Shown piece by piece: positions 442-24,804 of a stretch of DNA of 24,893 nt (its first letter is position 1; each line of letters opens with the position of its first letter). The DNA is from a virus. Location of the stretch: positions 1-24,893 of IMG/VR virus record IMGVR_UViG_2974665388_000001. The stretch is one strand, 5' to 3'. The notes below the pieces were generated by a model. That model was not told where the DNA came from and made no database searches. It was given only the letters and a program-made list of their open reading frames with translations. The position numbers and the translations under genes were made by a program.

Positions 442-1068
442 ATGGGTAGGATTACTGTTGAGGAAGAGAGTGAGGTAAAGAAGGCTGCAAAGCGGGAGTC
501 TAGCAAGGAAGCATTAGACGTTGGGAGGCCTCTAGGCCCATTAAAAAAAGCGTATCCTGAGGCGTTTGAGAAGCTTACAGCCCTGGAGCACGCTACAGGG
601 AAGAAGAAGATAGAGATAATGGCTGAAGCAATAGAGTTCTATGCGGAACACGCCTTATTGGGGGAGGCTTTCAAGCGGATTAGGAATCTAGACCCGGATG
701 ATATTGAGGCTATATGGATAGTGTTCAACTATTTCGAGATGAAGGCGTGGAAGAGGCAGATGTTCATGGCTAAGGAGCTGATACAGGGAACAATAGGAGA
801 GGTCCTCAGGTGGAGGGAGGAGATTTATTCCGAGGCTTGGGAGCAGGCTAGGCAGTATTACGAGGAGAGGATTAGGAGGATGCAGCAGAGGGGAGACGAT
901 GCTAGGAGGAGGAGGGTGGAGGAGATAACAGAGAAGATTCTAGCGAGGCTTGAGCCTTTAGTTGAAGCAATGGTGGAGCAGATGCTTGCTCCAACTATGA
1001 AGGCAGCAGGGGTTAAAAAGAGGCCTATGGAGAATGTTAAAGTTACGGTAGAGGGCCTTGAGGATTAG
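442..1068 (+). CDS. Helical/coiled-coil protein with RHH-like segment, putative DNA-binding
   Basis: SD GGTGGT; PEAFEKLTALEHATGKKKIEIMAEAIEFY resembles the two helices of CopG-type RHH proteins; charged helical C-terminal half. Confidence 0.7.
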   Translation: MGRITVEEESEVKKAAKRESSKEALDVGRPLGPLKKAYPEAFEKLTALEHATGKKKIEIMAEAIEFYAEHALLGEAFKRIRNLDPDDIEAIWIVFNYFEMKAWKRQMFMAKELIQGTIGEVLRWREEIYSEAWEQARQYYEERIRRMQQRGDDARRRRVEEITEKILARLEPLVEAMVEQMLAPTMKAAGVKKRPMENVKVTVEGLED

Positions 1069-1294
1069 AATTGTAACTGAGGATTATGTTGCAATCATTT
1101 CTGTTAGAAGGGCAGCTTACCTCTATCCTCTTCTCCACTGTTTTGACTACAGGGACCCTAGGAGGTGTGTGATTGAGACTCTGAAGAGAAGAGGATATAC
1201 TGTCAAACACGGTTATGTTGATGAGCTAGGGGAGGTAATCGAGACTGAGAGGCATAAGATAGTTATTCAATATAATGAAAGAAAGGGTGATTGA
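1058..1294 (+). CDS. Hypothetical protein, 78 aa
   Basis: Overlaps the upstream gene, TTG start after GAGGG, natural composition. Confidence 0.65.
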   Translation: MRIRIVTEDYVAIISVRRAAYLYPLLHCFDYRDPRRCVIETLKRRGYTVKHGYVDELGEVIETERHKIVIQYNERKGD

Positions 1295-1297
1295 GGA

Positions 1298-1837
1298 TTG
1301 GTGAGGGGTGTGGCTAGAGAAAGAGAAGCGGGGTTTGAAAGGGTAATAGGGCTTGTTCTCACGCTTCCCCTAGTGCTTGTGATGACATGGCTCATATTCA
1401 ATGCAGCGGTAGCATTCGCTCAGCGAAAGGAGGAGACAGTTCAGGCTGGGTTGAAGGCAATAGAGACGTATAATGAGAGCACTGCTGTTGAGATACCTGA
1501 GGGCCCGATTGATTATCCTGTTGCCGTATTCGAGCCGGTTAATGGTGCTAGTCATTTCTCATACATTGAGGGCATAAAGATTGAGGACCTGAACCCAGGA
1601 GGATTTGATAGGATTATGGTTGCTGTAGAGGCGGAGCTGGGAAGCGGGGCAAGGGCAACTATAGTTCCGCCTACAGAGATAGCTGGGCCTGACACGCTTA
1701 GGTGGGTCCTTGACAGCGTCCCAACGGGTGATACTATAAAGAAGGTCCTCGTGTATATCTGGGGAGAGACGTTTAGAGCAGACCAGACCGCAACTGCAAC
1801 GATAAGGGTAACTGGGCTCCAGGCGAGGGTAACTTAA
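1298..1837 (+). CDS. Membrane-anchored beta-rich protein, putative virion/surface protein; paralog of 1844-2278
   Basis: N-terminal hydrophobic helix VIGLVLTLPLVLVMTWLIFNAAVAFA; shared motifs with the next ORF; likely start GTG 1310 after SD GGTGAGGGG. Confidence 0.75.
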   Translation: MVRGVAREREAGFERVIGLVLTLPLVLVMTWLIFNAAVAFAQRKEETVQAGLKAIETYNESTAVEIPEGPIDYPVAVFEPVNGASHFSYIEGIKIEDLNPGGFDRIMVAVEAELGSGARATIVPPTEIAGPDTLRWVLDSVPTGDTIKKVLVYIWGETFRADQTATATIRVTGLQARVT

Positions 1838-1843
1838 TAATAA

Positions 1844-2278
1844 ATGGAGCATGATGTAACGATTGGTGAGAGCGAAGTGCCGGTTTGGGAAAGCACGTTA
1901 AAGGGTCTTGCAATCCCCAAGGTCTTCAACGAGCAAAGGACTGGAAACATTAACTTCACGGGGAGCGGGACCCAGGATATCGAAACATTTGCTCCAGCGA
2001 ATGGGTTTGCCTATGTTGAGGGTGTTTATCTCAACTTGCAGAACCCAGGTACAGATGCTGTAACTGTTGATGTTGTTGCAGTCTATGATGATGCAACGGA
2101 AACAGTACTTGCATCCGTTAACCTCTCTGCTGGAGGAGCATTTGAAGACTGGCTAAGGTGGGCTTACGACGCTAAGACGAATGGGAAGACTGTAAAGCAA
2201 CTCAAGATAAGGGCAACTGCTGCTAGCAGCAATTCAGCTCTCAACTACACTGTCAGGGTTACTGGGACAGCACTCTAG
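1844..2278 (+). CDS. Beta-sandwich putative structural protein; paralog of 1298-1837
   Basis: T/A/V/N-rich beta pattern; motifs FAPANG, AYVEG, NPG, LRWAYD, TVRVTG are shared with the upstream ORF. Confidence 0.75.
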   Translation: MEHDVTIGESEVPVWESTLKGLAIPKVFNEQRTGNINFTGSGTQDIETFAPANGFAYVEGVYLNLQNPGTDAVTVDVVAVYDDATETVLASVNLSAGGAFEDWLRWAYDAKTNGKTVKQLKIRATAASSNSALNYTVRVTGTAL

Positions 2279-2287
2279 GTGAGTTGA

Positions 2288-2590
2288 ATGCCATTCTGGC
2301 AATCAGAGATTATCAAGGTTATAGTCAAGTACAAGGAGCCAGCAACAATAGAAAATGAGAAGGTTGAACGAGGGATACTAGAGACTGGTAACATTAGCTG
2401 GAGCTCGGGGGCCATAAACGAGTTCTTACTACTTCTTAACCCAAAGGGAGTTATGGATGTAGATTCGAAGAAGCAGCCAACACCATTTATGAATTCCGGA
2501 GGCAGGCCAACTGGGAACCACTTTAACTTAAACGCAAAGGCATCATATGAACACATTCCTCTTATTACATTCTCTGTCGAGGCTGCATAA
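2288..2590 (+). CDS. Hypothetical protein, 100 aa
   Basis: SD GGTGAG at 2278-2283, within the same gene run. Confidence 0.65.
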   Translation: MPFWQSEIIKVIVKYKEPATIENEKVERGILETGNISWSSGAINEFLLLLNPKGVMDVDSKKQPTPFMNSGGRPTGNHFNLNAKASYEHIPLITFSVEAA

Positions 2591-2634
2591 GATTATTAAT
2601 AAAAGGAGCCTCTCATAATCTGTGGTGCTTTGTC

Positions 2635-2766
2635 ATGAGCTTTAATGTCCCTACCGAGGCTGTCTCGAAAGCTAGCCTGGACGACCCCAATTGGGGGACA
2701 GGGGCCCATGAAATATTGATAAGCAAAGATTCACTTACTGAACTAGTTGAGAAAGGCACGGCTTAG
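2635..2766 (+). CDS. Small 43-aa protein MSFNVPTEAVSKASLDDPNWGTGAHEILISKDSLTELVEKGTA (not in ORF track)
   Basis: Fills the gap between genes, AT-rich TATA-like TATTAATAAA about 35 nt upstream, stop abuts the SD of the next gene. Confidence 0.5.
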   Translation: MSFNVPTEAVSKASLDDPNWGTGAHEILISKDSLTELVEKGTA

Positions 2767-2774
2767 GGGGTGGT

Positions 2775-3686
2775 ATGATGCCTCTATACAAGATTGAGGT
2801 GGGGAAAAGTAGCATAAAGGGTATTGTTGATGTTAATGGCGGTGTTAGAAGGAATCTCCAGCTTAGGCAGTTCTGGTCTCTCTTAACATCAATATTGCTT
2901 GACACGTCAGTAGCTCTCAGGGATACTGGAGGTTCTCAATATTCTGTTAACTATGGGAGTTCAAACCCGGACCTGGATGCTAGGATTGTGTTGGGCCAGG
3001 GAACGGACCCTCCTTCGTTTGGGCAGTATAACCTTGTGCAGTACTCGAAGGAGCTGCCTACAAACAAGGTTGTATCTGATGTCTCAGGTACTCCTCCATA
3101 CACGAGGGTAACTCTTTCAACTACTGCTGACATAGATGCACAGGAGCTCGGGATTAGGCAGGATATAAGATACTATTACCTGCTTACTAGGACTGTTCAG
3201 CAAGTAGCAATAGGAGACGTTCTGAACTATCATTTAGAGTTTAAGCAGCCCTGGCTGAAGAACTTTGCTTTATTCTGGTTTGGTAAGCTGAATAAGAGCA
3301 ATGTTGATGGGGTATTGGATGTTACTGGAGCTAGTAGGACGTTGAGGACGGCTGGGGATACAACTGCTGGAACTATGAGGCTGCTAATAAGCGAGGATAT
3401 TATAACGTGGAGCCCTACACTATATTCAATACCAAATGCGGTAGAGCTGACTGATTATCATTGGACCTTCTGGAGCAATGACAACTATGTTGTGCTAGTG
3501 TATCTTGCTAGCATAATACCGGCAGTAACTATGACGGTGAACACTATCGGGATAGTTCAGAGACTGTATGACTCGGGTGGGAACCAGTTTGATGCTCTCC
3601 TAGCTGCTTTGGACATATCATCCAGCCCATTGACCTTAGAAGCAAACAAGCACAACTTCATAATGCTGAAATTCGTGTTCCACTAG
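2775..3686 (+). CDS. Beta-rich putative fibre/appendage structural protein with internal duplication
   Basis: Motifs IVLGQGTDPPSFGQYNL and QELGI resemble tail-fibre/collar-type domains; the second half repeats the pattern (RLLISEDIITWSPTLYSI, NTIGI). Confidence 0.6.
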   Translation: MMPLYKIEVGKSSIKGIVDVNGGVRRNLQLRQFWSLLTSILLDTSVALRDTGGSQYSVNYGSSNPDLDARIVLGQGTDPPSFGQYNLVQYSKELPTNKVVSDVSGTPPYTRVTLSTTADIDAQELGIRQDIRYYYLLTRTVQQVAIGDVLNYHLEFKQPWLKNFALFWFGKLNKSNVDGVLDVTGASRTLRTAGDTTAGTMRLLISEDIITWSPTLYSIPNAVELTDYHWTFWSNDNYVVLVYLASIIPAVTMTVNTIGIVQRLYDSGGNQFDALLAALDISSSPLTLEANKHNFIMLKFVFH

Positions 3687-3693
3687 CTCGGCT

Positions 3694-3708
3694 AAACCCT
3701 TATCATAA
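3694..3708 (+). promoter_or_regulatory. BRE-TATA-like promoter AAACCCTTATCATAA
   Basis: Same AAACC(C)TT context as other intergenic promoters; upstream of SD GGGGTG and ATG 3741. Confidence 0.5.
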
Positions 3709-3740
3709 CTTTTTTGCTCTTACCTATTCTAGGGGTGCAT

Positions 3741-4526
3741 ATGAAGAGCGTTACGGCAGACCTTCCTTACCCCTACAAGTATGCTCATTGGCTCTGTGTA
3801 TCTATGAGAGCTAAGAGTATGAGTTATGAGGACAGGCTGGAGGCAGCCAGACAATGTTTAGCTGAGGGTAAGACGATAGGAATAGTAAACCTGTTTGGGC
3901 TCAAGCAGCCGTTGGACAGTCAGGGTTACAGGTACAGGTTTGACGGGGTTGCTTCAGTTGTTAGGAGGGATTCTAGGGTAGAGGTTGTTACTGAGAGGAG
4001 AGAGCGGGTTCCAGAGACGGTTTGGGAGAGGCTTGGTATGAGTGAGGAGCAGTACAGGCTGGGCATGAACTACTATAAAACTACTGCAAAAGAGCTGGCT
4101 GGAATATTTGATGTAAGCCTTGAGGAAGAGATTGAGAAGCTGTATAATAAGGCTTATGGGAGGATGACTCCTGAAGAGTTTGGAATAGAGCTTGCAAGGA
4201 TGATTAAGGACAGGCTTTTACAGCTTGTAAGAGAAGCTAGGAGGATGCAGGATGTTTTGAGAATGCTTGAGGAGAGGTATGGCATTAGGCTAGGCATAGA
4301 GGAGCCAACCGAGTTCATAAGGATTGTGGAGGAGGCTAGCCCTAGCAGCGTTATATCAATCCTATTCAAGGAGAACATCTACCAGATTGTCAGGTGGTAT
4401 AACAGGTTGAAGCGTGTTACAGAGCATGTCGAAGTTATAGAGAAGGCTGAGGAGTCTCTGAGGACAGGGAAGCTGCTAGTATCAGAGGAGGAGCTGAAAA
4501 GCTGCTTGAGGGCCTCCCAGAGCTAA
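3741..4526 (+). CDS. Protein with N-terminal His/Cys domain (paralog of 24377-24577) and helical C-terminus; C-terminus may be frameshift-truncated
   Basis: ATG 3741 after SD GGGGTG (track start 3714); alignable with 24377-24577; the -1 frame after 4500 continues to TGA 4607-4609. Confidence 0.75.
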   Translation: MKSVTADLPYPYKYAHWLCVSMRAKSMSYEDRLEAARQCLAEGKTIGIVNLFGLKQPLDSQGYRYRFDGVASVVRRDSRVEVVTERRERVPETVWERLGMSEEQYRLGMNYYKTTAKELAGIFDVSLEEEIEKLYNKAYGRMTPEEFGIELARMIKDRLLQLVREARRMQDVLRMLEERYGIRLGIEEPTEFIRIVEEASPSSVISILFKENIYQIVRWYNRLKRVTEHVEVIEKAEESLRTGKLLVSEEELKSCLRASQS

Positions 4527-4605
4527 GGGCAAGGTATGAGAGGCTATTACAGCAGTTTAAGGGAGGGCATACAGGTTTGAGATTCCAGGCTATGCTGTCG
4601 AGGAC

Positions 4606-5829
4606 TTGAATCATGTCTTTAGTATTAGTGGTGGGGATGTGTTTATAGTTCCATCTAGCTATGAAGTAGCATTTGTAACTCTCAACCCTGAATATACTGT
4701 AGCACTTGCCCTCTACCTCGACGTGAAGGTCGAGGGAACACCATTCCCCGTGAAGATTAGTAATGAGATAGTGCTAGAGCCGGGAGAGGTGGAGGTTAGG
4801 GAGAAGGCTGGGGTAGTAGAGGTTGTAGTAGCAGGAAGGAAGTACAGTGGTGCTCTGGCAAATCCAGAAGAGATACTGATGCCAGCGAAATTTGAAACAG
4901 TAGACATGCTCACAATTAGAGTTGATGTTGATGTGTTGAGGCTCATGAGGGACGTTAATACTGTAGCTTTATCGCTTGATGAGGATGTAGGCCTTGCTGA
5001 AGGAGACAACTGGGCTGTCATCGAGTTTGACAAGGATGGCAAGTTTGAGGCCGAGGCAGTGTTTCACGGTCGCTGGATAAGGCAGGCAGTACCTCCGAGC
5101 GTGTTTAGGGCGAGGAAGGATACAGTAACTATGAGGATTGCAAGGGATAGGCCTGTTATAGTTGAGGGTTATACTAGAGCTGGGCAACGGTTTGTTGCTG
5201 CAATAGGGCAATCTGTCGAGTCCCCAGGAATCCCATCAAGGTTCATATATCTTGAGCCAGAGTACATGAGGCCTAGTGAGCTCCTAGGCGTGCTTGAACT
5301 TGCATTTGATGTGGTGCTAGACTATTATAGCATATATGGAGTATTTACGCATTATGATTTCTTCAGTATAGGGCTCTCTAAAGGGGCTTCAGGAAGGTAC
5401 AGGTTGAGGCATAGCTTGCATGTGCCCAGGCCTATTAAGAGGGCAGTTGATATTGCAGGGGGGCTTCAAGCAGCACCGAGAGACGGTGTTTTAGACGTTA
5501 ATGGAGCCTTGCTAGAAGAGGTTGAGGAGCTACCTCGGGACATAGCAGAGGCAAAGGCTAGAGTAGAGGAGTATCAAATAGTTGAGGTATTCAACGTTAG
5601 AACGAAAGTGGATAGAGCTGAAATCAGGGATGGGGAGTTAATACTGTACAAGGGGAGGAGCGAGGTTCTAAGGATAAGCGTGCCTATATCAGGGGACTTT
5701 AGATTCGATAGCGAGCTGATACGGTACTTCACTCCAGGGGGGATAACGTTGATGGAGAGGGATGGGGAAGTTGCGTTGAGGTTTGAGAAGAGCTATAACA
5801 CATGGCTATTCGTGGAGGGGGTGAGATAA
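4606..5829 (+). CDS. Putative divergent sliding-clamp (PCNA-fold) protein with two fused PCNA-like units
   Basis: By-eye motifs: VAFVTLNPEYTVALALYL (PCNA AMDPSRVALIDL-like), KDTVTMRIARDRPVIVEGY (PCNA C-terminal strands), second unit ending GDFRFDSELIRYF...EVALRFEKSYNTWLFVEG. Coding is certain; the function is inferred. Confidence 0.55.
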   Translation: MNHVFSISGGDVFIVPSSYEVAFVTLNPEYTVALALYLDVKVEGTPFPVKISNEIVLEPGEVEVREKAGVVEVVVAGRKYSGALANPEEILMPAKFETVDMLTIRVDVDVLRLMRDVNTVALSLDEDVGLAEGDNWAVIEFDKDGKFEAEAVFHGRWIRQAVPPSVFRARKDTVTMRIARDRPVIVEGYTRAGQRFVAAIGQSVESPGIPSRFIYLEPEYMRPSELLGVLELAFDVVLDYYSIYGVFTHYDFFSIGLSKGASGRYRLRHSLHVPRPIKRAVDIAGGLQAAPRDGVLDVNGALLEEVEELPRDIAEAKARVEEYQIVEVFNVRTKVDRAEIRDGELILYKGRSEVLRISVPISGDFRFDSELIRYFTPGGITLMERDGEVALRFEKSYNTWLFVEGVR

Positions 5830-6293
5830 TGAACATAACTATGGAGGACATACAAAGGTTTATGGTTGGCTCGATAGGGATAGCTCTGATAGTTGCTATG
5901 GCAACGTTCATGAGAGAGGCTTTACTAGGTGATGAGCAGCCAAAGAAAACAGTTAGGGTTGTCCCTGGGGATGCTGCTTCTGCAATCCACGAGGTCCTAA
6001 GCACTAATGGCTATGTTTACATTGCAGTTGGGGAGGGGTGCAGCTACTGTCCAATAGCGTATTCAATGGTTGAGCTTGCTGGGATTCCAGTGAGAAAGAT
6101 AGTTGATATAAGGAACCTTAGAGACGAGGATGAAGTATGGAAGTTTGCAAGGACAGTTGGCATATCATCTGCTCCAGCACTTCTTCTTGTCGAGGATGGC
6201 AGGGTTGTAAGGGTTATAGAGTTCTCTGGGGATGTTGAAAAGGATAGGGAGGAGATTAAACGTGAGAAAGCTTATCTTGGGGCTGCATTCTAA
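5829..6293 (+). CDS. Membrane-anchored thioredoxin-fold protein (CSYC)
   Basis: GEGCSYCP CxxC motif, SAPALL cis-Pro loop, N-terminal TM helix; ATG 5829 after SD GGGGTGAG with TAATG coupling (track start 5802). Confidence 0.85.
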   Translation: MNITMEDIQRFMVGSIGIALIVAMATFMREALLGDEQPKKTVRVVPGDAASAIHEVLSTNGYVYIAVGEGCSYCPIAYSMVELAGIPVRKIVDIRNLRDEDEVWKFARTVGISSAPALLLVEDGRVVRVIEFSGDVEKDREEIKREKAYLGAAF

Positions 6294-6636
6294 AGGTGGC
6301 AGGGTTTCGTTCAGCGATTTCATTGAGATTGTAAAGAAGGAGAGGGCTTTTGCCCTGATATCAGGCCCTAACTGTAGGGAGTGTAGTGTGTTGAAGCACT
6401 TGCTGAAGGAGAGTGGTGCTGAGAGGTTCATAAAATACGAGCTTGAGATACCGGTTGATGATGAGGCTATTGAAGCTGCTCAGAAGGCGGGCATAATGCA
6501 TATCCCGATAATAGTTGACTGCTTCAGGGAGTGTGATATGATTATTGATGTGGACCCTTATAGGCAGTTTGAAGAGCTTGTTAGGAGGCTTGTTGGCTAC
6601 GGTTTAGCAGAGGTTAGGGAAGAGAAGGAGTTATAA
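6232..6636 (+). CDS. Thioredoxin/glutaredoxin-fold protein (CREC)
   Basis: ALISGPNCRECSVLK CxxC after a beta strand; HIPIIV cis-Pro loop. Confidence 0.8.
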   Translation: MLKRIGRRLNVRKLILGLHSKGGRVSFSDFIEIVKKERAFALISGPNCRECSVLKHLLKESGAERFIKYELEIPVDDEAIEAAQKAGIMHIPIIVDCFRECDMIIDVDPYRQFEELVRRLVGYGLAEVREEKEL

Positions 6637-6680
6637 TAAAAGCAACTGACTTTAGCTTGTGGTAGAGAGTGGGTGAGAAT

Positions 6681-6812
6681 ATGGCGAGCCCAGTAGACCT
6701 TGCGGCATTGTTTGGGCAGCTAGTGGGGATTCTGCCCTGGATAATGGTAATCGCATTACTGCCGGTCTTGATAAAGAGCATAGTAGAGGCGATAAGGGAG
6801 TTCAGGGCTTAG
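6681..6812 (+). CDS. 43-aa membrane peptide MASPVDLAALFGQLVGILPWIMVIALLPVLIKSIVEAIREFRA (MASP family; not in track)
   Basis: SD GGGTGAG; homologous N-terminus with 6826 and 20849. Confidence 0.85.
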   Translation: MASPVDLAALFGQLVGILPWIMVIALLPVLIKSIVEAIREFRA

Positions 6813-6825
6813 GGGGTGAGGAGTG

Positions 6826-6948
6826 ATGGCTAGTCCGTTCGACCTAAGTCAGATATTCCAGATGATAGTGCCAATAATGATGATACTCTTCGTGGTAATG
6901 CTTGTAAGCGTGCTCTTCAGGAGCCTCAGAGGAGCCTTCACAGCATAA
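6826..6948 (+). CDS. 40-aa membrane peptide MASPFDLSQIFQMIVPIMMILFVVMLVSVLFRSLRGAFTA (MASP family; not in track)
   Basis: SD GGTGAGGAG; homologous to 6681 and 20849. Confidence 0.85.
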   Translation: MASPFDLSQIFQMIVPIMMILFVVMLVSVLFRSLRGAFTA

Positions 6949-7017
6949 CACTAGCAGCACTAACGAGGCAGCCAAGCATATATCCAATCAAAGCATCTTT
7001 TTAACCCAGGGGCAGAG

Positions 7018-7236
7018 ATGACTGAAGACTGCAAAGTAGGGGTTAGATGTCCTGTCTGCAATACAGTATTCTTCATTGATAGGATGGCTCTTGCCCAAGG
7101 AGAGATAAAGTGCCCACATTGTGGGGCTTCTCTGGTATTAGTTCCTAAAGACCCAACGCTCTTAGCTCAAATGGCATTGTACAAGGAGCTCAGCTTAATA
7201 TTAAAGAAAGTTGAGAGAATGCTCGGTGGGGACTAG
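7018..7236 (+). CDS. Zinc-ribbon protein
   Basis: CPVC...CPHCG motif pair followed by a helix. Confidence 0.8.
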   Translation: MTEDCKVGVRCPVCNTVFFIDRMALAQGEIKCPHCGASLVLVPKDPTLLAQMALYKELSLILKKVERMLGGD

Positions 7237-7238
7237 CA

Positions 7239-7508
7239 ATGACGAGCCAGATAAAGGAGCTGGAGAGGAGGGTTTCGAAGCTGGAAGATAAAGTGAATGA
7301 TTTGGAGGTTGCTGTTGGGGACTTGAAGGTTGCTATTGGAAGGCTTGAGGCAAAGATAGACACCCTTGTTCAGCAAAATAAGGAGCTAGTATCAATTATA
7401 AAGTCGAGGAATACTGGCTCCCTCACGGTTTTATTAATAAAATATGTCGTGTTCCCTCTTATTGTCATTCTAGGGGGGTTGATTGGGCTCAAGCTCACAC
7501 TTCCTTAA
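7239..7508 (+). CDS. Coiled-coil protein with C-terminal TM anchor
   Basis: Heptad repeats (IKELERRVSKLEDKVNDLEVAVGDLKVAIGRLEAKID) followed by a hydrophobic helix. Confidence 0.8.
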   Translation: MTSQIKELERRVSKLEDKVNDLEVAVGDLKVAIGRLEAKIDTLVQQNKELVSIIKSRNTGSLTVLLIKYVVFPLIVILGGLIGLKLTLP

Positions 7509-7764
7509 ACAAATCATAAAGAAATGGTGGAGCTATGTTGGGAGGAATCCCCTGAAGAACTTGAGGAAGAGGCTTATACTGTGGTATGTTACCCTTGTTT
7601 TTTTGATATTAGCCGATGAATACGTTAAGGAGGGCTATATCCTGAGGCCTCGGGACTTCCTTATTCCATTTACGCATGAAAACCTTCTTCTCGTTTTAAC
7701 CCTAGCTTTTATAATTGCTTACTGGAAGCTCCTGGGTGGGAGGGATGATAGGGATAATAGCTGA
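7483..7764 (+). CDS. Small two-TM membrane protein (start uncertain)
   Basis: Two hydrophobic segments flanking DEYVKEGY...FTHE. Confidence 0.65.
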   Translation: MGSSSHFLKQIIKKWWSYVGRNPLKNLRKRLILWYVTLVFLILADEYVKEGYILRPRDFLIPFTHENLLLVLTLAFIIAYWKLLGGRDDRDNS

Positions 7765-8749
7765 TACTTGGGGGATTTCGTTTAGGAGGGTGGCTTTCCT
7801 CACTGAGATGGGTCTTAGAAGGATTGGCTATGTTTCTAGGGTCTATGAGGTTAGGTCTCCAACGATATTATGGGGGTCTTTTGCGAGGATTATAATCGTG
7901 GGGGATACGGCTCTCCTCCTTAAGATGGGTTCACACGAGGTGTGGGCACCTTATTCAGAGCAGAGGGTTTGGTGGGCAGACACCCCCCTTGAGTATGGCT
8001 CGATTGTTACTAGGAGGATGGTTGATTTTCTCAATGCAAATTATAGGGTTGCAGCGGTAAGCGAGTACAACGCTAGGCAGTATAGGGAGCTGGGTGTTAA
8101 GGTTCACGGACTAATACCGAGGCCTGTTGATATCGGGGCAATAGCTAGGGCTGACAGGACCGTTTGGAGGAGGAAGTTTGGAGGAGAGTATATCTTAACG
8201 ATAGGGAGCGATACGATATTGTTAAGAGACAGATATCCAAGGAAGGGGCTTGACATATGCGATGCTGCCATAGGGCTAATTAAGGGAGAGCTTAAGAAGA
8301 GGGGGATAAGGACGGTTGCAGTTACTAACTGGAACATGATGAACTTCGATTACGTGCTACAGGCTGGTAGTCTATCAGATGAGGAGATATACTCCTTAAT
8401 AGTCGGGGCCAAACTGTTTATCTGGTGTAGCAGAAGAGAAGGATTCGGAATGCCACCCCTTGAGGCTATGGCTGCTGGGGTTCCGATTGTCTACTCGGAC
8501 GCTCCAGCACACAACGAGTTCCTTGTTGGCTATAAGGTGCCTCCAAGAGCTGAGCTCGAAGTAACACATAGGGAATCGGGGCTTCCAATGATTGTTTACG
8601 ACTTCTCAGCTAAACACTTCGCTGATACAATCCTTTATGCTCTAGAGGATATTGAGAATGACATGCATCTTGCCTATGTCGAGGAGGGTCTTGAGAGAGC
8701 GAAATACTTTGACGTTAGAAACGTTGCACAAATGTTAATTGAAATATAG
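7745..8749 (+). CDS. GT-B fold glycosyltransferase, family 4-like
   Basis: RKG motif and EGFGMPPLEAMAAGVP signature; ATG 7745 after SD GGTGGGAGGG (track start 7715). Confidence 0.9.
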   Translation: MIGIIADTWGISFRRVAFLTEMGLRRIGYVSRVYEVRSPTILWGSFARIIIVGDTALLLKMGSHEVWAPYSEQRVWWADTPLEYGSIVTRRMVDFLNANYRVAAVSEYNARQYRELGVKVHGLIPRPVDIGAIARADRTVWRRKFGGEYILTIGSDTILLRDRYPRKGLDICDAAIGLIKGELKKRGIRTVAVTNWNMMNFDYVLQAGSLSDEEIYSLIVGAKLFIWCSRREGFGMPPLEAMAAGVPIVYSDAPAHNEFLVGYKVPPRAELEVTHRESGLPMIVYDFSAKHFADTILYALEDIENDMHLAYVEEGLERAKYFDVRNVAQMLIEI

Positions 8750-23777: not shown

Positions 23778-24136
23778 TGAACAAGATAGACAAGGATATA
23801 CTTGAGGCCGTGATGAAGATGACAAACCAGAGGCGTGATGTTAAGATAACGAAGGATGAGCTGTTTGTTTACATGTACCTGAGCATGAAGAGGAATGGCT
23901 TGAAACCATATAGCTTCGAGACGATAGCCAGGAGACTTAGAATCCTCGTTAGAAAGGGCTACTTTACCGTGAAATACGTTGAAGAGAAGAAAGGCAATCT
24001 GAAGTGGAGAAGAGCATACTACATTCCACGAAGGCTAACAATAGCTGCAAAGCTGAAGGCAGAGCAGTTAAGGTCTGCTACTCTAACAGTTTATGGGGTT
24101 AAAGTTGGAGCCAGCAGTAACAGCAGCGAGCGATGA
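23765..24136 (+). CDS. Winged-helix protein (start probably ATG 23777)
   Basis: SFETIARRLRILVRKGYF followed by a beta wing ending AYYIP. Confidence 0.8.
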   Translation: MGEIMNKIDKDILEAVMKMTNQRRDVKITKDELFVYMYLSMKRNGLKPYSFETIARRLRILVRKGYFTVKYVEEKKGNLKWRRAYYIPRRLTIAAKLKAEQLRSATLTVYGVKVGASSNSSER

Positions 24137-24398
24137 AGAGCTAAAACAGAGAATTATGAAGGTCTTGCAGAACGGGAGCAAGACTCTTGTCGAGGTTCAT
24201 TTTTTAGTTGAGAAGACTGGCTTCGTTGTTTCTTACAGGCGTCTCAAGCTGGTTGTTGACGAGATGGTTCAATCTGGGCTTATAGAAAAAATGAGGGACG
24301 GAAAAAAGGTAAAGTATAAGATAAAAGAAGGGCAGCATAAGATATGGCTCGAATACCCCTGGAGAGGTGAGGAAGAGTGGGCAAGTATGCGACTCTAA
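24093..24398 (+). CDS. ArsR-like winged-helix protein
   Basis: RIMKVLQNGSKTLVEV...LVVDEMVQSGLIEKMRDGKKVKYKI. Confidence 0.8.
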   Translation: MGLKLEPAVTAASDEELKQRIMKVLQNGSKTLVEVHFLVEKTGFVVSYRRLKLVVDEMVQSGLIEKMRDGKKVKYKIKEGQHKIWLEYPWRGEEEWASMRL

Positions 24399-24577
24399 CA
24401 CAGGACCTTCCCGAGGAGTACAGGAAGGCTCACCCCATATGTGTGGCTAGTAAAGTGGCCAAAATGGGCTACGAGCCTGCAAGGGCTCCTAGGGACGTGA
24501 GGCAGAGAGCAGCCGAGGAGTGTATAAGGGAGGGCAAGCTGCACGGCATAGTGAAGCTGCTAAGCCCCTCGGTTTGA
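24377..24577 (+). CDS. 66-aa His/Cys protein, stand-alone paralog of the N-terminal domain of 3741-4526
   Basis: TQDLPEEYRKAHPICV...AAEECIREGKLHGIVKL aligns with TADLPYPYKYAHWLCV...AARQCLAEGKTIGIVNL. Confidence 0.8.
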   Translation: MGKYATLTQDLPEEYRKAHPICVASKVAKMGYEPARAPRDVRQRAAEECIREGKLHGIVKLLSPSV

Positions 24578-24582
24578 AGGCC

Positions 24583-24804
24583 CTAGAACCTATACCTCCT
24601 AATTATTTTTTCAATGTCGCTTACACTGAACTTCTTCTTCTTGTTTGACATCAAATACTGAATTTGAAGGAATCTCAGTACTCTTACAACCTTTCCAATT
24701 GGATGCTTTAAGAGGATATCTGTCATCTTGTCTGCATCATCCTCTCCCAACCCTAGCTCGATGAGAGTCCTTCTTATCATATCTCTGAATTCTTTCCGCT
24801 CCAC
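24583..24804 (-). CDS. Only antisense gene; 73-aa basic helical protein
   Basis: GTG start with SD GGTAGGTGA on the - strand; lies in a gap with no + strand ORF; converges on the 24377 gene. Confidence 0.8.
   Translation of the reverse strand: MERKEFRDMIRRTLIELGLGEDDADKMTDILLKHPIGKVVRVLRFLQIQYLMSNKKKKFSVSDIEKIIRRYRF

What the first reader, a model, noticed from the sequence alone, without database searches (positions are those of the whole stretch)
4561..5829. Putative tandem (four-domain) PCNA-fold protein: two clamp subunits in one chain
The sequence threads by eye onto the PCNA beta-alpha-beta pattern twice. Unit 1 has VAFVTLNPEYTVALALYL (cf. AMDPSRVALIDL), a linker PEEILMPAKF, and KDTVTMRIARDRPVIVEGYTRAGQRFVAAI (cf. 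the PCNA C-terminal strands). Unit 2 ends GDFRFDSELIRYFTPGGITLMERDGEVALRFEKSYNTWLFV. The frame is open back to 4561 (GRAYRFEIPGYAVED), which would supply the first strand and helix, but it has no canonical start. Established: clamps are six-domain rings and crenarchaeal PCNA is heterotrimeric. Inference: four viral domains plus one host PCNA subunit could close a hybrid ring that redirects or blocks host replication factors.
Basis: inference. Interest (0 to 1): 0.85.

Follow-up and report, generated by a model that had tools for sequence, protein, structure and literature searches.

The report
Clamp-like module of a split viral gene
The flagged reading frame of the Aeropyrum coil-shaped virus is probably the back two-thirds of one larger, frame-broken gene, and its product most likely folds like a multi-domain DNA sliding clamp, which would be the first replication-type protein seen in this virus.

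Summary
The window is the whole 24,893-nt Aeropyrum coil-shaped virus (ACV) genome. The quoted peptides, the TTG start at 4606 and the frame open back to 4561 are all confirmed.

1. ORF407 is not a stand-alone gene.
- Two metagenomic ACV relatives carry its counterpart fused to the upstream ORF (3741-4526), as single 690-aa and 839-aa proteins.
- In ACV, codon usage runs frame 0, then frame 2 (about 4466-4567), then frame 1.
- One extra base at each of two GGG runs (4467-69 and 4565-67) would give a 696-codon gene.

2. The clamp idea gets consistent but modest support.
- Pfam and PDB sequence searches find nothing.
- A low-confidence AlphaFold model (only residues 330-422 are confident) returns sliding clamps almost exclusively. 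Foldseek top rows are DnaN (E 5e-5). At least 20 of the top 50 rows in a Foldseek-independent search are clamps (best Z 5.8).
- Residues 1-224 align end to end with an archaeal PCNA profile (P about 0.01-0.02; 0-1 of 190 shuffles reach the score).

Four domains (two PCNA-like units) is the best reading, and three is not excluded. The hybrid ring with host PCNA could not be tested. Verdict: a probable new variant of the clamp fold, at moderate confidence.

The parts
3741..4469 (+). N-terminal segment of the composite gene, read in frame 0. It is annotated alone as a 261-aa ORF ending at 4526. It holds a conserved roughly 60-aa domain (DLPYPYKYAHWLCV...CLAEGKTIGIVNL...GYRYRFD) followed by a helical, coiled-coil-like linker.
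   Evidence: ATG 3741 is preceded by a GGGGTG Shine-Dalgarno-like motif. The segment is 43-72% identical to the N-termini of the fused proteins of L002 and L003. The matching linker in P0003 gives weak Rad50/SMC coiled-coil hits.
4467..4469 (+). GGG run, the candidate site of the first frame change (frame 0 to frame 2). One extra G here would keep the reading frame open.
   Evidence: A frameshift-aware alignment to the L002 protein places the shift at about 4464. The codon-usage score switches from frame 0 to frame 2 between 4450 and 4465. The exact site is not fixed and could lie anywhere in 4448-4523.
4448..4609 (+). Open stretch in the third frame (position mod 3 = 2) that bridges the two annotated ORFs. 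The part from about 4466 to 4567 looks translated (…EAASIRGGAEKLLEGLPELRARYERLLQQFKGG).
   Evidence: 24-codon windows here score 8.4-9.8 log-odds. None of 3088 off-frame windows in the long ORFs of the genome reaches 8, and the in-frame mean is 5.6 with sd 2.9.
4565..4567 (+). GGG run, the candidate site of the second frame change (frame 2 to frame 1).
   Evidence: The alignment places the shift at about 4565. Frame 1 only opens at 4561, and frame 2 closes at 4607-4609.
4561..5829 (+). C-terminal segment in frame 1, which is the finding itself. The annotated ORF407 starts at TTG 4606. This is the putative clamp-fold module.
   Evidence: It is homologous over residues 48-390 to P0003 residues 287-649 (E 1.2e-8 against 1.8 billion representatives; BLASTP 8e-14). 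The TTG has only a GAGG 2 nt upstream, unlike the GGTG-type motifs of most genes in this genome.
4561..5232 (+). Putative unit 1 (protein P0001 residues 1-224), comprising clamp domains D1 (4561-4884) and D2 (4885-5232).
   Evidence: hhalign against a 28-sequence archaeal PCNA profile is colinear over PCNA columns 1-250, with P 0.014-0.019. D2 alone aligns with the PCNA C-domain at P 0.005-0.0075. Shuffles reach the score in 1 of 190 and 0 of 190 trials. The AlphaFold model is unreliable in this region (pLDDT 22-57).
5233..5826 (+). Putative unit 2 (residues 225-422), comprising domains D3 (5233-5496) and D4 (5497-5826).
   Evidence: VIA-align superposes model residues 157/177-422 on whole two-domain clamps: Rad9/Hus1/Rad1 Z 5.6-5.8, PCNAs Z 4.7-5.6, gp45 4.9, UL44 4.8. 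The domain borders are my inference from helix spacing.
5545..5826 (+). The only confidently modelled domain (residues 329-422, pLDDT 65-88), with topology alpha-beta(4-5)-alpha-beta(3).
   Evidence: With low-confidence stretches trimmed, it superposes on E. coli DnaN (58-65 residues at 2.0-2.5 A, Z 5.0-5.5) and on PCNA (about 100 residues, Z 5.2-5.6).
24377..24577 (+). Stand-alone 66-aa paralog of the N-terminal conserved domain.
   Evidence: tblastn of the L002 protein matches 24407-24562 at 44% identity over 52 aa, E 1e-6. ORF listing.
5802..6293 (+). Downstream membrane-anchored thioredoxin-like gene. It overlaps the 3' end by 28 nt and keeps the same position in both relatives.
   Evidence: phrog_22 thioredoxin domain, E 8.8e-9. 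Same gene order in L002, L003 and L005.

Best explanation
Positions 4561-5829 encode the C-terminal roughly 420 residues of one ACV gene of about 696 codons (3741-5829). The deposited sequence breaks this gene into two annotated ORFs (261 aa and 407 aa) through two apparent one-base losses at GGG runs.

The protein has three parts: a small conserved N-terminal helical domain, a coiled-coil-like linker of about 150 aa, and a C-terminal module built from repeated beta-alpha-beta-beta-beta motifs of the DNA sliding-clamp fold. The module is most likely four domains, that is two PCNA-like units in tandem.

Shown here: the fusion in relatives, the coding signal in the bridging frame, conservation upstream of the TTG, and clamp-only structural neighbours of the predicted models.

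Inferred: the number of domains, and the function. The function I think most likely is a virus-made clamp-like platform that sits on the viral DNA and recruits host replication enzymes. The virus has no polymerase or Rep of its own. Four head-to-tail clamp domains would make an open arc of about 240 degrees, because each clamp domain spans 60 degrees of a six-domain ring (established clamp geometry). Such an arc could act alone, as the herpesvirus factors do, or be closed by one two-domain host PCNA subunit.
For: Gene structure:
- P0003 (672 aa as called) from metagenome contig L002 matches the upstream ORF with its N-terminus and ORF407 with its C-terminal 360 aa, in one open frame.
- With the overlapping contig L004 (exact 123-nt overlap) the relative's protein is 690 aa. 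The ACV composite is 696 codons.
- A second, more distant relative (L003/L005, 839 aa) also has the N-terminal domain and a long C-terminal part in one ORF, with the same downstream thioredoxin gene.
- Codon-usage log-odds pick frame 0, then frame 2, then frame 1. Frame-2 scores of 8.4-9.8 are reached by 0 of 3088 off-frame windows.
- A frameshift-aware alignment puts the shifts at about 4464 and 4565.
- The TTG at 4606 would cut the conserved RFEIP strand and the following putative helix. It also lacks the usual GGTG-type ribosome-binding motif.

Fold:
- In the AlphaFold model made with the two-sequence alignment, Foldseek against the PDB finds 83 hits at E <= 1e-3. The listed top rows are bacterial beta clamps (best E 5.2e-5, prob 0.98, about 445 aligned columns).
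- The Foldseek-independent VIA-align search of 48,161 chains lists at least 20 sliding clamps of all branches among the top 50. These include 9-1-1, PCNA (among them A. pernix PCNA1), gp45, DnaN, UL44, BMRF1 and the ASFV clamp. Best Z is 5.8 (second look).
- In BFVD, the next three rows after the protein itself are phage beta clamps (E 3e-4 to 8e-4), and clamps and PCNAs recur down the list.
- In the ESM Atlas, DnaN clusters are among the nearest neighbours both of my model and of the Atlas's own ESMFold model.
- The profile-profile alignment of residues 1-224 with archaeal PCNA is colinear end to end and beats 189 of 190 shuffles. For domain 2 it beats 190 of 190.

Context: the ICTV profile states that ACV has no identifiable polymerase or Rep and probably depends on the host replisome (PMC7416610). 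Another crenarchaeal virus, SIRV2, is reported to recruit host PCNA (Gardner et al. 2014, as cited in PMC6105669).
Against: - No sequence family model recognises the protein.
- Both AlphaFold models are of low confidence (mean pLDDT 36 and 42.8), and only the last 90 residues are trustworthy.
- Foldseek TM-scores are about 0.2 and VIA Z-scores are below 6. By the tool's own notes this is within the range of common arrangements.
- The single-sequence model gave no Foldseek hit below E 0.028, although clamps were scattered among the weak rows.
- The hhalign P-values are only 0.005-0.03, and the DnaN profile gave P 0.066.
- Neither model predicts helices in residues 1-110, so the first domain rests on by-eye threading plus the hhalign alignment.
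- The more distant relative P0005 shows no detectable similarity in its C-terminal part.
- The frame changes could be real, leaving two separate or defective products in this isolate.
- Nothing tested bears on DNA binding, ring formation or partners.
Confidence: 0.55

Rival explanations
1. The module is a three-domain, DnaN-like clamp (domains at about residues 109-224, 225-315 and 316-422) preceded by an unrelated beta-rich region of about 110 aa. Two copies would then close a six-domain ring as bacterial beta clamps do.
For: Foldseek's best hits are three-domain beta clamps aligned over the whole length. Both AlphaFold models predict exactly six helices, each followed by 3-4 strands, and none in residues 1-110. 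Viral DnaN clusters are the nearest ESM Atlas neighbours.
Against: hhalign against a 34-sequence DnaN profile is not significant (P 0.066). By contrast, residues 1-224 align with a whole two-domain PCNA, which places a clamp domain in residues 1-108. The N-terminal region is the least reliable part of the models (pLDDT 22-45). The conserved RFEIP strand and the two short helix-like segments recur in the homolog at the expected spacing.
Confidence: 0.2
2. The module is not a clamp. It is an alpha/beta protein of another or a new fold, and the clamp hits arise because poor models of repeated beta-alpha-beta-beta-beta segments resemble clamps locally.
For: pLDDT is below 50 for 311 of 422 residues. 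TM is about 0.2 and Z is below 6. The single-sequence model also drew diaminopimelate epimerases and microtubule inner proteins at similar weak E-values. There is no family-level sequence match.
Against: Clamps make up at least 20 of the top 50 among 48,161 representative chains, far more than their share of the library. Two different predictors agree. The confident C-terminal domain has the clamp-domain topology. An independent sequence-profile test points to the same family in the predicted register.
Confidence: 0.2
3. The annotation is right. ORF261 and ORF407 are two separate genes in ACV, a real split of a gene that is fused in relatives, and ORF407 starts at TTG 4606.
For: The deposited sequence has stops in both frames (4524-26 and 4558-60) and a canonical TTG with a GAGG just upstream. 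Public records list 261-aa and 407-aa proteins. No independent reads could be found to check the sequence (none was listed).
Against: A 100-nt stretch in the third frame has full coding character. Conserved residues lie upstream of the TTG. The composite length matches the relative's (696 against 690 codons). The TTG lacks the usual ribosome-binding motif. If real, the split must be very recent.
Confidence: 0.2

Closest known systems
Archaeal PCNA (PF00705/PF02747), including the heterotrimeric PCNA1/2/3 of Crenarchaeota
   Same: It shares the predicted two-domain beta-alpha-beta-beta-beta x4 unit. The profile alignment of residues 1-224 is colinear, including the C-terminal 'P-x-x-[IL]-E ... 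hydrophobic strand' motif (the relative has ...QPILIE...DVYLAPS). VIA superpositions reach Z 4-5.6 on Sulfolobus, Aeropyrum and eukaryotic PCNAs.
   Different: There is no Pfam-level sequence match. It has two units in one chain instead of one, and compact domains of about 100-112 aa. It is fused behind an N-terminal domain and a coiled coil. No interdomain connector loop or PIP pocket could be assessed, and ring formation is unknown.
Bacterial and phage DnaN beta clamp (PF00712/PF02767/PF02768)
   Same: It gives the best Foldseek matches over the whole length (E 5e-5). It is also a multi-domain single chain of similar size (366 against about 420 aa).
   Different: DnaN has three domains and dimerises. 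The DnaN profile alignment here is not significant, and the helix count with the N-terminal part included favours four domains. The host is an archaeon that uses PCNA.
Herpesvirus processivity factors UL42, UL44 and BMRF1, and T4 gp45
   Same: These are virus-encoded clamp-fold proteins with no or little sequence similarity to cellular clamps. UL44 and BMRF1 appear among the structural matches (Z 4.2-4.8). From my own knowledge, not tested here, the UL44 dimer is an open four-domain C-clamp that works without a loader.
   Different: Those work with a virus-encoded polymerase, and ACV has none. The UL44 arc is a head-to-head dimer, not a single head-to-tail chain.
SIRV2 proteins that recruit host PCNA (Gardner et al. 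2014, cited in PMC6105669)
   Same: The problem is the same: a crenarchaeal virus without its own polymerase must capture the host replisome through the clamp.
   Different: Those are small proteins that bind PCNA, not clamp mimics. The link here is functional analogy only.

Membership tests
PCNA (PF00705 PCNA_N / PF02747 PCNA_C) | Significant match to the family HMMs | tested here: not met
   hmmscan of the 407-aa and 422-aa forms and of both relatives at E up to 10 found no PCNA family. PF00705 searched against the six frames of the genome found no match at E <= 10, while control genomes matched.
PCNA (PF00705 PCNA_N / PF02747 PCNA_C) | Two topologically identical domains, each made of two beta-alpha-beta-beta-beta motifs | tested here: inconclusive
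   The model of residues 157/177-422 superposes on whole PCNA chains (Z 4.7-5.6, 125-150 residues, rmsd about 4-5 A). Residues 1-224 align with the PCNA profile at P 0.014-0.019. The model confidence is low except for residues 330-422.
PCNA (PF00705 PCNA_N / PF02747 PCNA_C) | Head-to-tail assembly into a closed six-domain ring around DNA | not testable with these tools
This needs SEC-MALS, EM or crystallography.
PCNA (PF00705 PCNA_N / PF02747 PCNA_C) | Hydrophobic pocket under the interdomain connector that binds PIP-box partners | not tested
   The model is too poor in the relevant region (pLDDT below 50).
DnaN beta clamp (PF00712/PF02767/PF02768) | Significant match to the family HMMs or profile | tested here: not met
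   There was no Pfam hit. hhalign against a 34-sequence DnaN profile gave P 0.066.
DnaN beta clamp (PF00712/PF02767/PF02768) | Three clamp domains in one chain | tested here: inconclusive
   Foldseek aligns about 445 columns to three-domain clamps (E 5e-5, TM about 0.2). Six helices are predicted, but the alignment of residues 1-108 to the PCNA N-domain suggests a fourth domain.
Viral clamp-fold processivity factors (UL42/UL44/BMRF1, gp45) | Clamp fold with little or no sequence similarity to cellular clamps, encoded next to or acting with a viral polymerase | tested here: inconclusive
   Structural matches were gp45 Z 4.9, UL44 Z 4.8 and BMRF1 Z 4.2. No polymerase gene is known in this genome (PMC7416610).

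The most novel reading that the evidence does not exclude
ACV makes a single-chain, four-domain, PCNA-like arc, tethered through a coiled coil to a small DNA- or protein-binding head. One host PCNA subunit completes this arc into a hybrid ring. That ring would be the missing replication factor of the largest known ssDNA virus genome, capturing the host polymerases for a Rep-less replication mode.
Probability: 0.1. Interest if true: 0.9.

Novelty: new variant of a known kind. Interest (0 to 1): 0.6.

Why it matters
ACV has the largest known ssDNA virus genome, and no replication protein has been recognised in it. The ICTV profile says it may use a novel mechanism that depends on the host replisome (PMC7416610). 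A virus-encoded clamp-like protein would be the first handle on that mechanism. It would also be a clamp architecture not described before: tandem units in one chain, fused to a coiled coil and a head domain.

Two results stand on their own. Two annotated ACV genes are probably one gene. ACV also has metagenomic relatives, which changes the gene map of a family so far known from a single genome and gives material for better structure prediction.

In the paper library searched, no paper links Spiraviridae with a viral clamp or PCNA homolog.

Tried and rejected
- **Family and sequence searches.** Pfam, PHROGs and NCBIfam scans of ORF407, the 422-aa form, the upstream ORF, P0003 and P0005 found nothing relevant. 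P0003 gave only coiled-coil noise. PDB sequence searches with single proteins and with the two-sequence profile found nothing relevant.
- **Homolog searches.** The word-based search found only the protein itself. The exhaustive representative search found one true homolog, P0003, and one spurious zinc-finger repeat protein, P0004. Further searches added only a 98%-identical copy of P0005.
- **Collection scans.** Scans of viral contigs (three), genome contigs and the phage collection found no relatives.
- **Internal repeats.** BLASTP of the two halves and hhalign of the four putative domains against each other were not significant.
- **P0005 C-terminal part.** There was no similarity by BLASTP or hhalign to ORF407 or to the PCNA profile. 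Against DnaN it gave P 0.046, which is not significant.
- **Single-sequence AlphaFold model.** Mean pLDDT was 36, and Foldseek gave no hit below E 0.028.
- **Language-model search with P0006.** The best scores were 0.80-0.82, at chance level. A cluster partly annotated gp45-slide_C at rank 28 is only a lead.
- **Sequencing runs holding the region.** None was listed, so the two frame changes could not be checked against reads.
- **Programmed frameshifting.** I saw no X XXY YYZ slippery heptamer at either site and no long homopolymer for transcriptional slippage (read). I consider it unlikely, but it is not excluded.
- **N-terminal structural matches.** Matches of the N-terminal 140 residues to Whirly-type MRP1/2, SsgA, ToxS and similar chains (Z 3.7-5.0) lie in the lowest-confidence part of the model and were disregarded.
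Full report
**Identity of the window.** The window is a complete 24,893-base virus record with 46.7% G+C. Both values are those given for Aeropyrum coil-shaped virus, ACV (PMC7416610). The BFVD library names the flagged protein J7QC59, 'Uncharacterized protein [Alphaspiravirus yamagawaense]', 407 aa. The ICTV profile states that ACV has no identifiable DNA or RNA polymerase and no Rep. It adds that replication probably depends on the host replisome and that no relatives are known.

**Check of the observation.**
- The frame is open from 4561 to the stop at 5827-5829, behind a TAA at 4558-4560.
- The first ATG/GTG/TTG in the frame is the TTG at 4606, giving 407 aa.
- All the quoted peptides are present.
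- Standard searches do not recognise the protein. Pfam, PHROGs and NCBIfam find nothing, and PDB sequence searches find nothing.
- The PCNA_N model finds nothing in the six frames of the genome, while it does find the control archaea.
- The two halves share no detectable sequence repeat.

**The gene is larger than the finding.** An exhaustive HMMER search of 1.8 billion representatives found one true homolog, P0003 (E 1.2e-8; 26% identity over 383 aligned positions).
- P0003 lies on a 2.3-kb metagenome contig, L002.
- Its N-terminus matches the ORF upstream of the finding (window 3762-4241, 43% identity, E 2e-30). Its C-terminal 360 residues match ORF407, all in one open frame.
- Contig L004 overlaps L002 by exactly 123 nt and supplies the start (MPITRDLPYPY..., behind a GGTG motif). 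The protein is therefore 690 aa.
- A second, more distant relative (L003, and the 98%-identical L005 from another sample) has an 839-aa ORF. It starts with the same N-terminal domain (58% identity over 69 aa to P0003) and is followed by the same membrane-anchored thioredoxin-like gene as in ACV.
- tblastx shows these contigs are colinear with ACV over several genes. They are ACV-like viruses of lower G+C (37%).

**The frame path in ACV.** In ACV the two parts lie in different frames and no single shift can join them. Frame 0 closes at 4526 and frame 1 opens at 4561. The third frame is open from 4448 to 4609 and bridges them.
- A codon-usage log-odds scan, trained on the other long ORFs of the genome, picks frame 0 up to about 4465, frame 2 from about 4466 to 4565, and frame 1 from about 4560.
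- The frame-2 windows score 8.4-9.8. None of 3088 off-frame windows elsewhere reaches 8, and true reading frames average 5.6.
- A frameshift-aware alignment to the L002 protein takes the same path, with shifts at about 4464 and 4565.
- Both positions are GGG runs. One more base at each gives 2088 nt, or 696 codons, from the ATG at 3741. That ATG has a GGGGTG ribosome-binding motif. The relative has 690 codons.
- The residues just upstream of the TTG are conserved with the relative (R-x-x-I-P-x5-D-x2-H-x2-S-x-S).
- The TTG has only a GAGG two bases upstream. Many genes of this genome have GGTG-type motifs upstream of the start.

I conclude that 3741-5829 is, or very recently was, one gene. I cannot tell whether the two missing bases are errors in the deposited sequence, real mutations of the sequenced isolate, or recoding. 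No sequencing run holding the region was listed. I saw no slippery heptamer.

**Fold: predicted structures.**
- AlphaFold without an alignment failed (mean pLDDT 36).
- With the two-sequence alignment the mean rose only to 42.8, but residues 330-422 reached 65-88. Their topology is helix, 4-5 strands, helix, 3 strands.
- Foldseek against the PDB gave 83 hits at E <= 1e-3. The listed top rows are bacterial beta sliding clamps (best E 5.2e-5, probability 0.98, about 445 aligned columns). TM-scores were only about 0.2, so the local structure strings match but the global arrangement of the poor model does not.
- A search that does not depend on Foldseek (VIA-align against 48,161 representative chains) put Rad9-Rad1-Hus1 first (Z 5.8).
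- It listed at least 20 sliding clamps among the top 50. These were T4 gp45, HCMV UL44, EBV BMRF1, the ASFV clamp, PCNAs from Sulfolobus, Aeropyrum, Thermococcus, Haloferax and eukaryotes, and several DnaN. They usually align model residues 157/177-422 with a whole two-domain chain (second look).
- With low-confidence stretches trimmed, the confident part superposes on E. coli DnaN at 2.0-2.5 A over 58-65 residues (Z 5.0-5.5).
- In BFVD, the next three rows after the protein itself are phage beta clamps, and clamps and PCNAs recur among mixed weaker rows.
- The ESM Atlas's own ESMFold model of this protein (pLDDT 0.36) has a viral DnaN cluster as nearest neighbour. My model does too, at rows 2-3.
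- All Z-scores are below the level the tool regards as safe. The argument rests on the near-exclusive enrichment for one fold, not on any single score.

**Fold: sequence profiles.** For a sequence-based test I built a 28-sequence archaeal PCNA profile from genomes reached through the genome search and compared it with the two-sequence alignment.
- Residues 1-224 align colinearly with the entire PCNA, profile columns 1-250 (P 0.014-0.019).
- Residues 109-224 align with the PCNA C-terminal domain (P 0.005-0.0075).
- Column shuffles reached the observed score in 1 of 190 trials (residues 1-224) and 0 of 190 trials (domain 2).
- The relative alone gives P 0.0066 at the same place (...KDQPILIETNVPEGMLDVYLAPS).
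- As a yardstick, E. coli DnaN against the same PCNA profile gives P 4e-4.
- A 34-sequence DnaN profile gave P 0.066, which is not significant. Loci from two unpublished genomes were left out.
- The second half of the protein gave nothing significant by sequence.

**How many domains.** Both models predict six helices, each followed by three or four strands. They begin at about residues 123, 170, 238, 290, 318/323 and 385. That makes six half-domain motifs, or three domains. The PCNA alignment places two further short helices at about residues 12-20 and 64-72, conserved in position in the relative. Eight motifs at about 55-residue spacing would give four domains of 100-112 aa. My estimates are four domains at roughly 55%, three domains plus another N-terminal domain at 25-30%, and no clamp fold at about 20%.

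**Mechanism (inferred).** The protein would be a head domain, a coiled coil and a clamp-fold arc. The linker of the relative gives weak Rad50/SMC coiled-coil matches.
- In known clamps six domains close the ring, so four head-to-tail domains would span about 240 degrees.
- Such an arc could hold DNA by itself. From my own knowledge, not tested here, the herpesvirus factors work without a loader.
- For a virus with no polymerase or Rep, the plausible role is to recruit host replication enzymes to the viral DNA.
- None of this was tested.

**Comparison and novelty.** The protein fails the sequence definition of both the PCNA and DnaN families, so I do not file it as a member of either. It most likely shares their fold. 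The architecture has no described counterpart that I know of: tandem units in one chain, fused to a coiled coil and a head domain, in a ssDNA archaeal virus. The paper library holds no paper linking Spiraviridae with a viral clamp. I rate it a new variant of a known kind, at moderate confidence, with interest 0.6. The gene-model correction and the discovery of ACV relatives are solid by-products.

Noticed in passing
L002 (1-2329), L004 (1-8508), L003 (1-3074), L005 (1-6130): Four metagenome contigs from two samples (JGI 3300014911, ENA ERZ27248349) come from at least two ACV-like viruses. They have about 37% G+C and share gene order with ACV. L005 follows ACV from about 760 to 8380. L004 follows ACV 24135-24652, then 180-888, then the fused gene. 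The ICTV profile says no relatives of ACV are known.
   Followed up: partly
window 24377-24577 (+): This 66-aa ORF is a stand-alone paralog of the conserved N-terminal domain of the composite gene (DLPxxY[RK]xAHx[IL]CV...AAxxC[IL]xEGKxxGIVxLL). It lies next to the small DNA-binding-protein genes. No family match was found.
   Followed up: partly
window 1298-3686 versus L004 7400-8400: In the relative on L004, the homolog of ACV ORF 442-1068 is followed directly by the fused gene. The ACV genes between 1298 and 3686 have no counterpart there, so this block is an insertion in ACV or a loss in the relative.
   Followed up: no
window 5802-6636 (+); L005 2863-4177: Two thioredoxin/glutaredoxin-like genes follow the composite gene in ACV, the first with an N-terminal membrane helix. 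The relatives keep a thioredoxin-like gene at the same place, and L005 adds a ferredoxin-thioredoxin-reductase-like gene (PF02943).
   Followed up: no
window, whole length: G over C skew is strong and uniform on the + strand (0.10-0.36 in every 1-kb window). L002 and L004 share it (0.23-0.31), but L003 and L005 do not (0.03).
   Followed up: no
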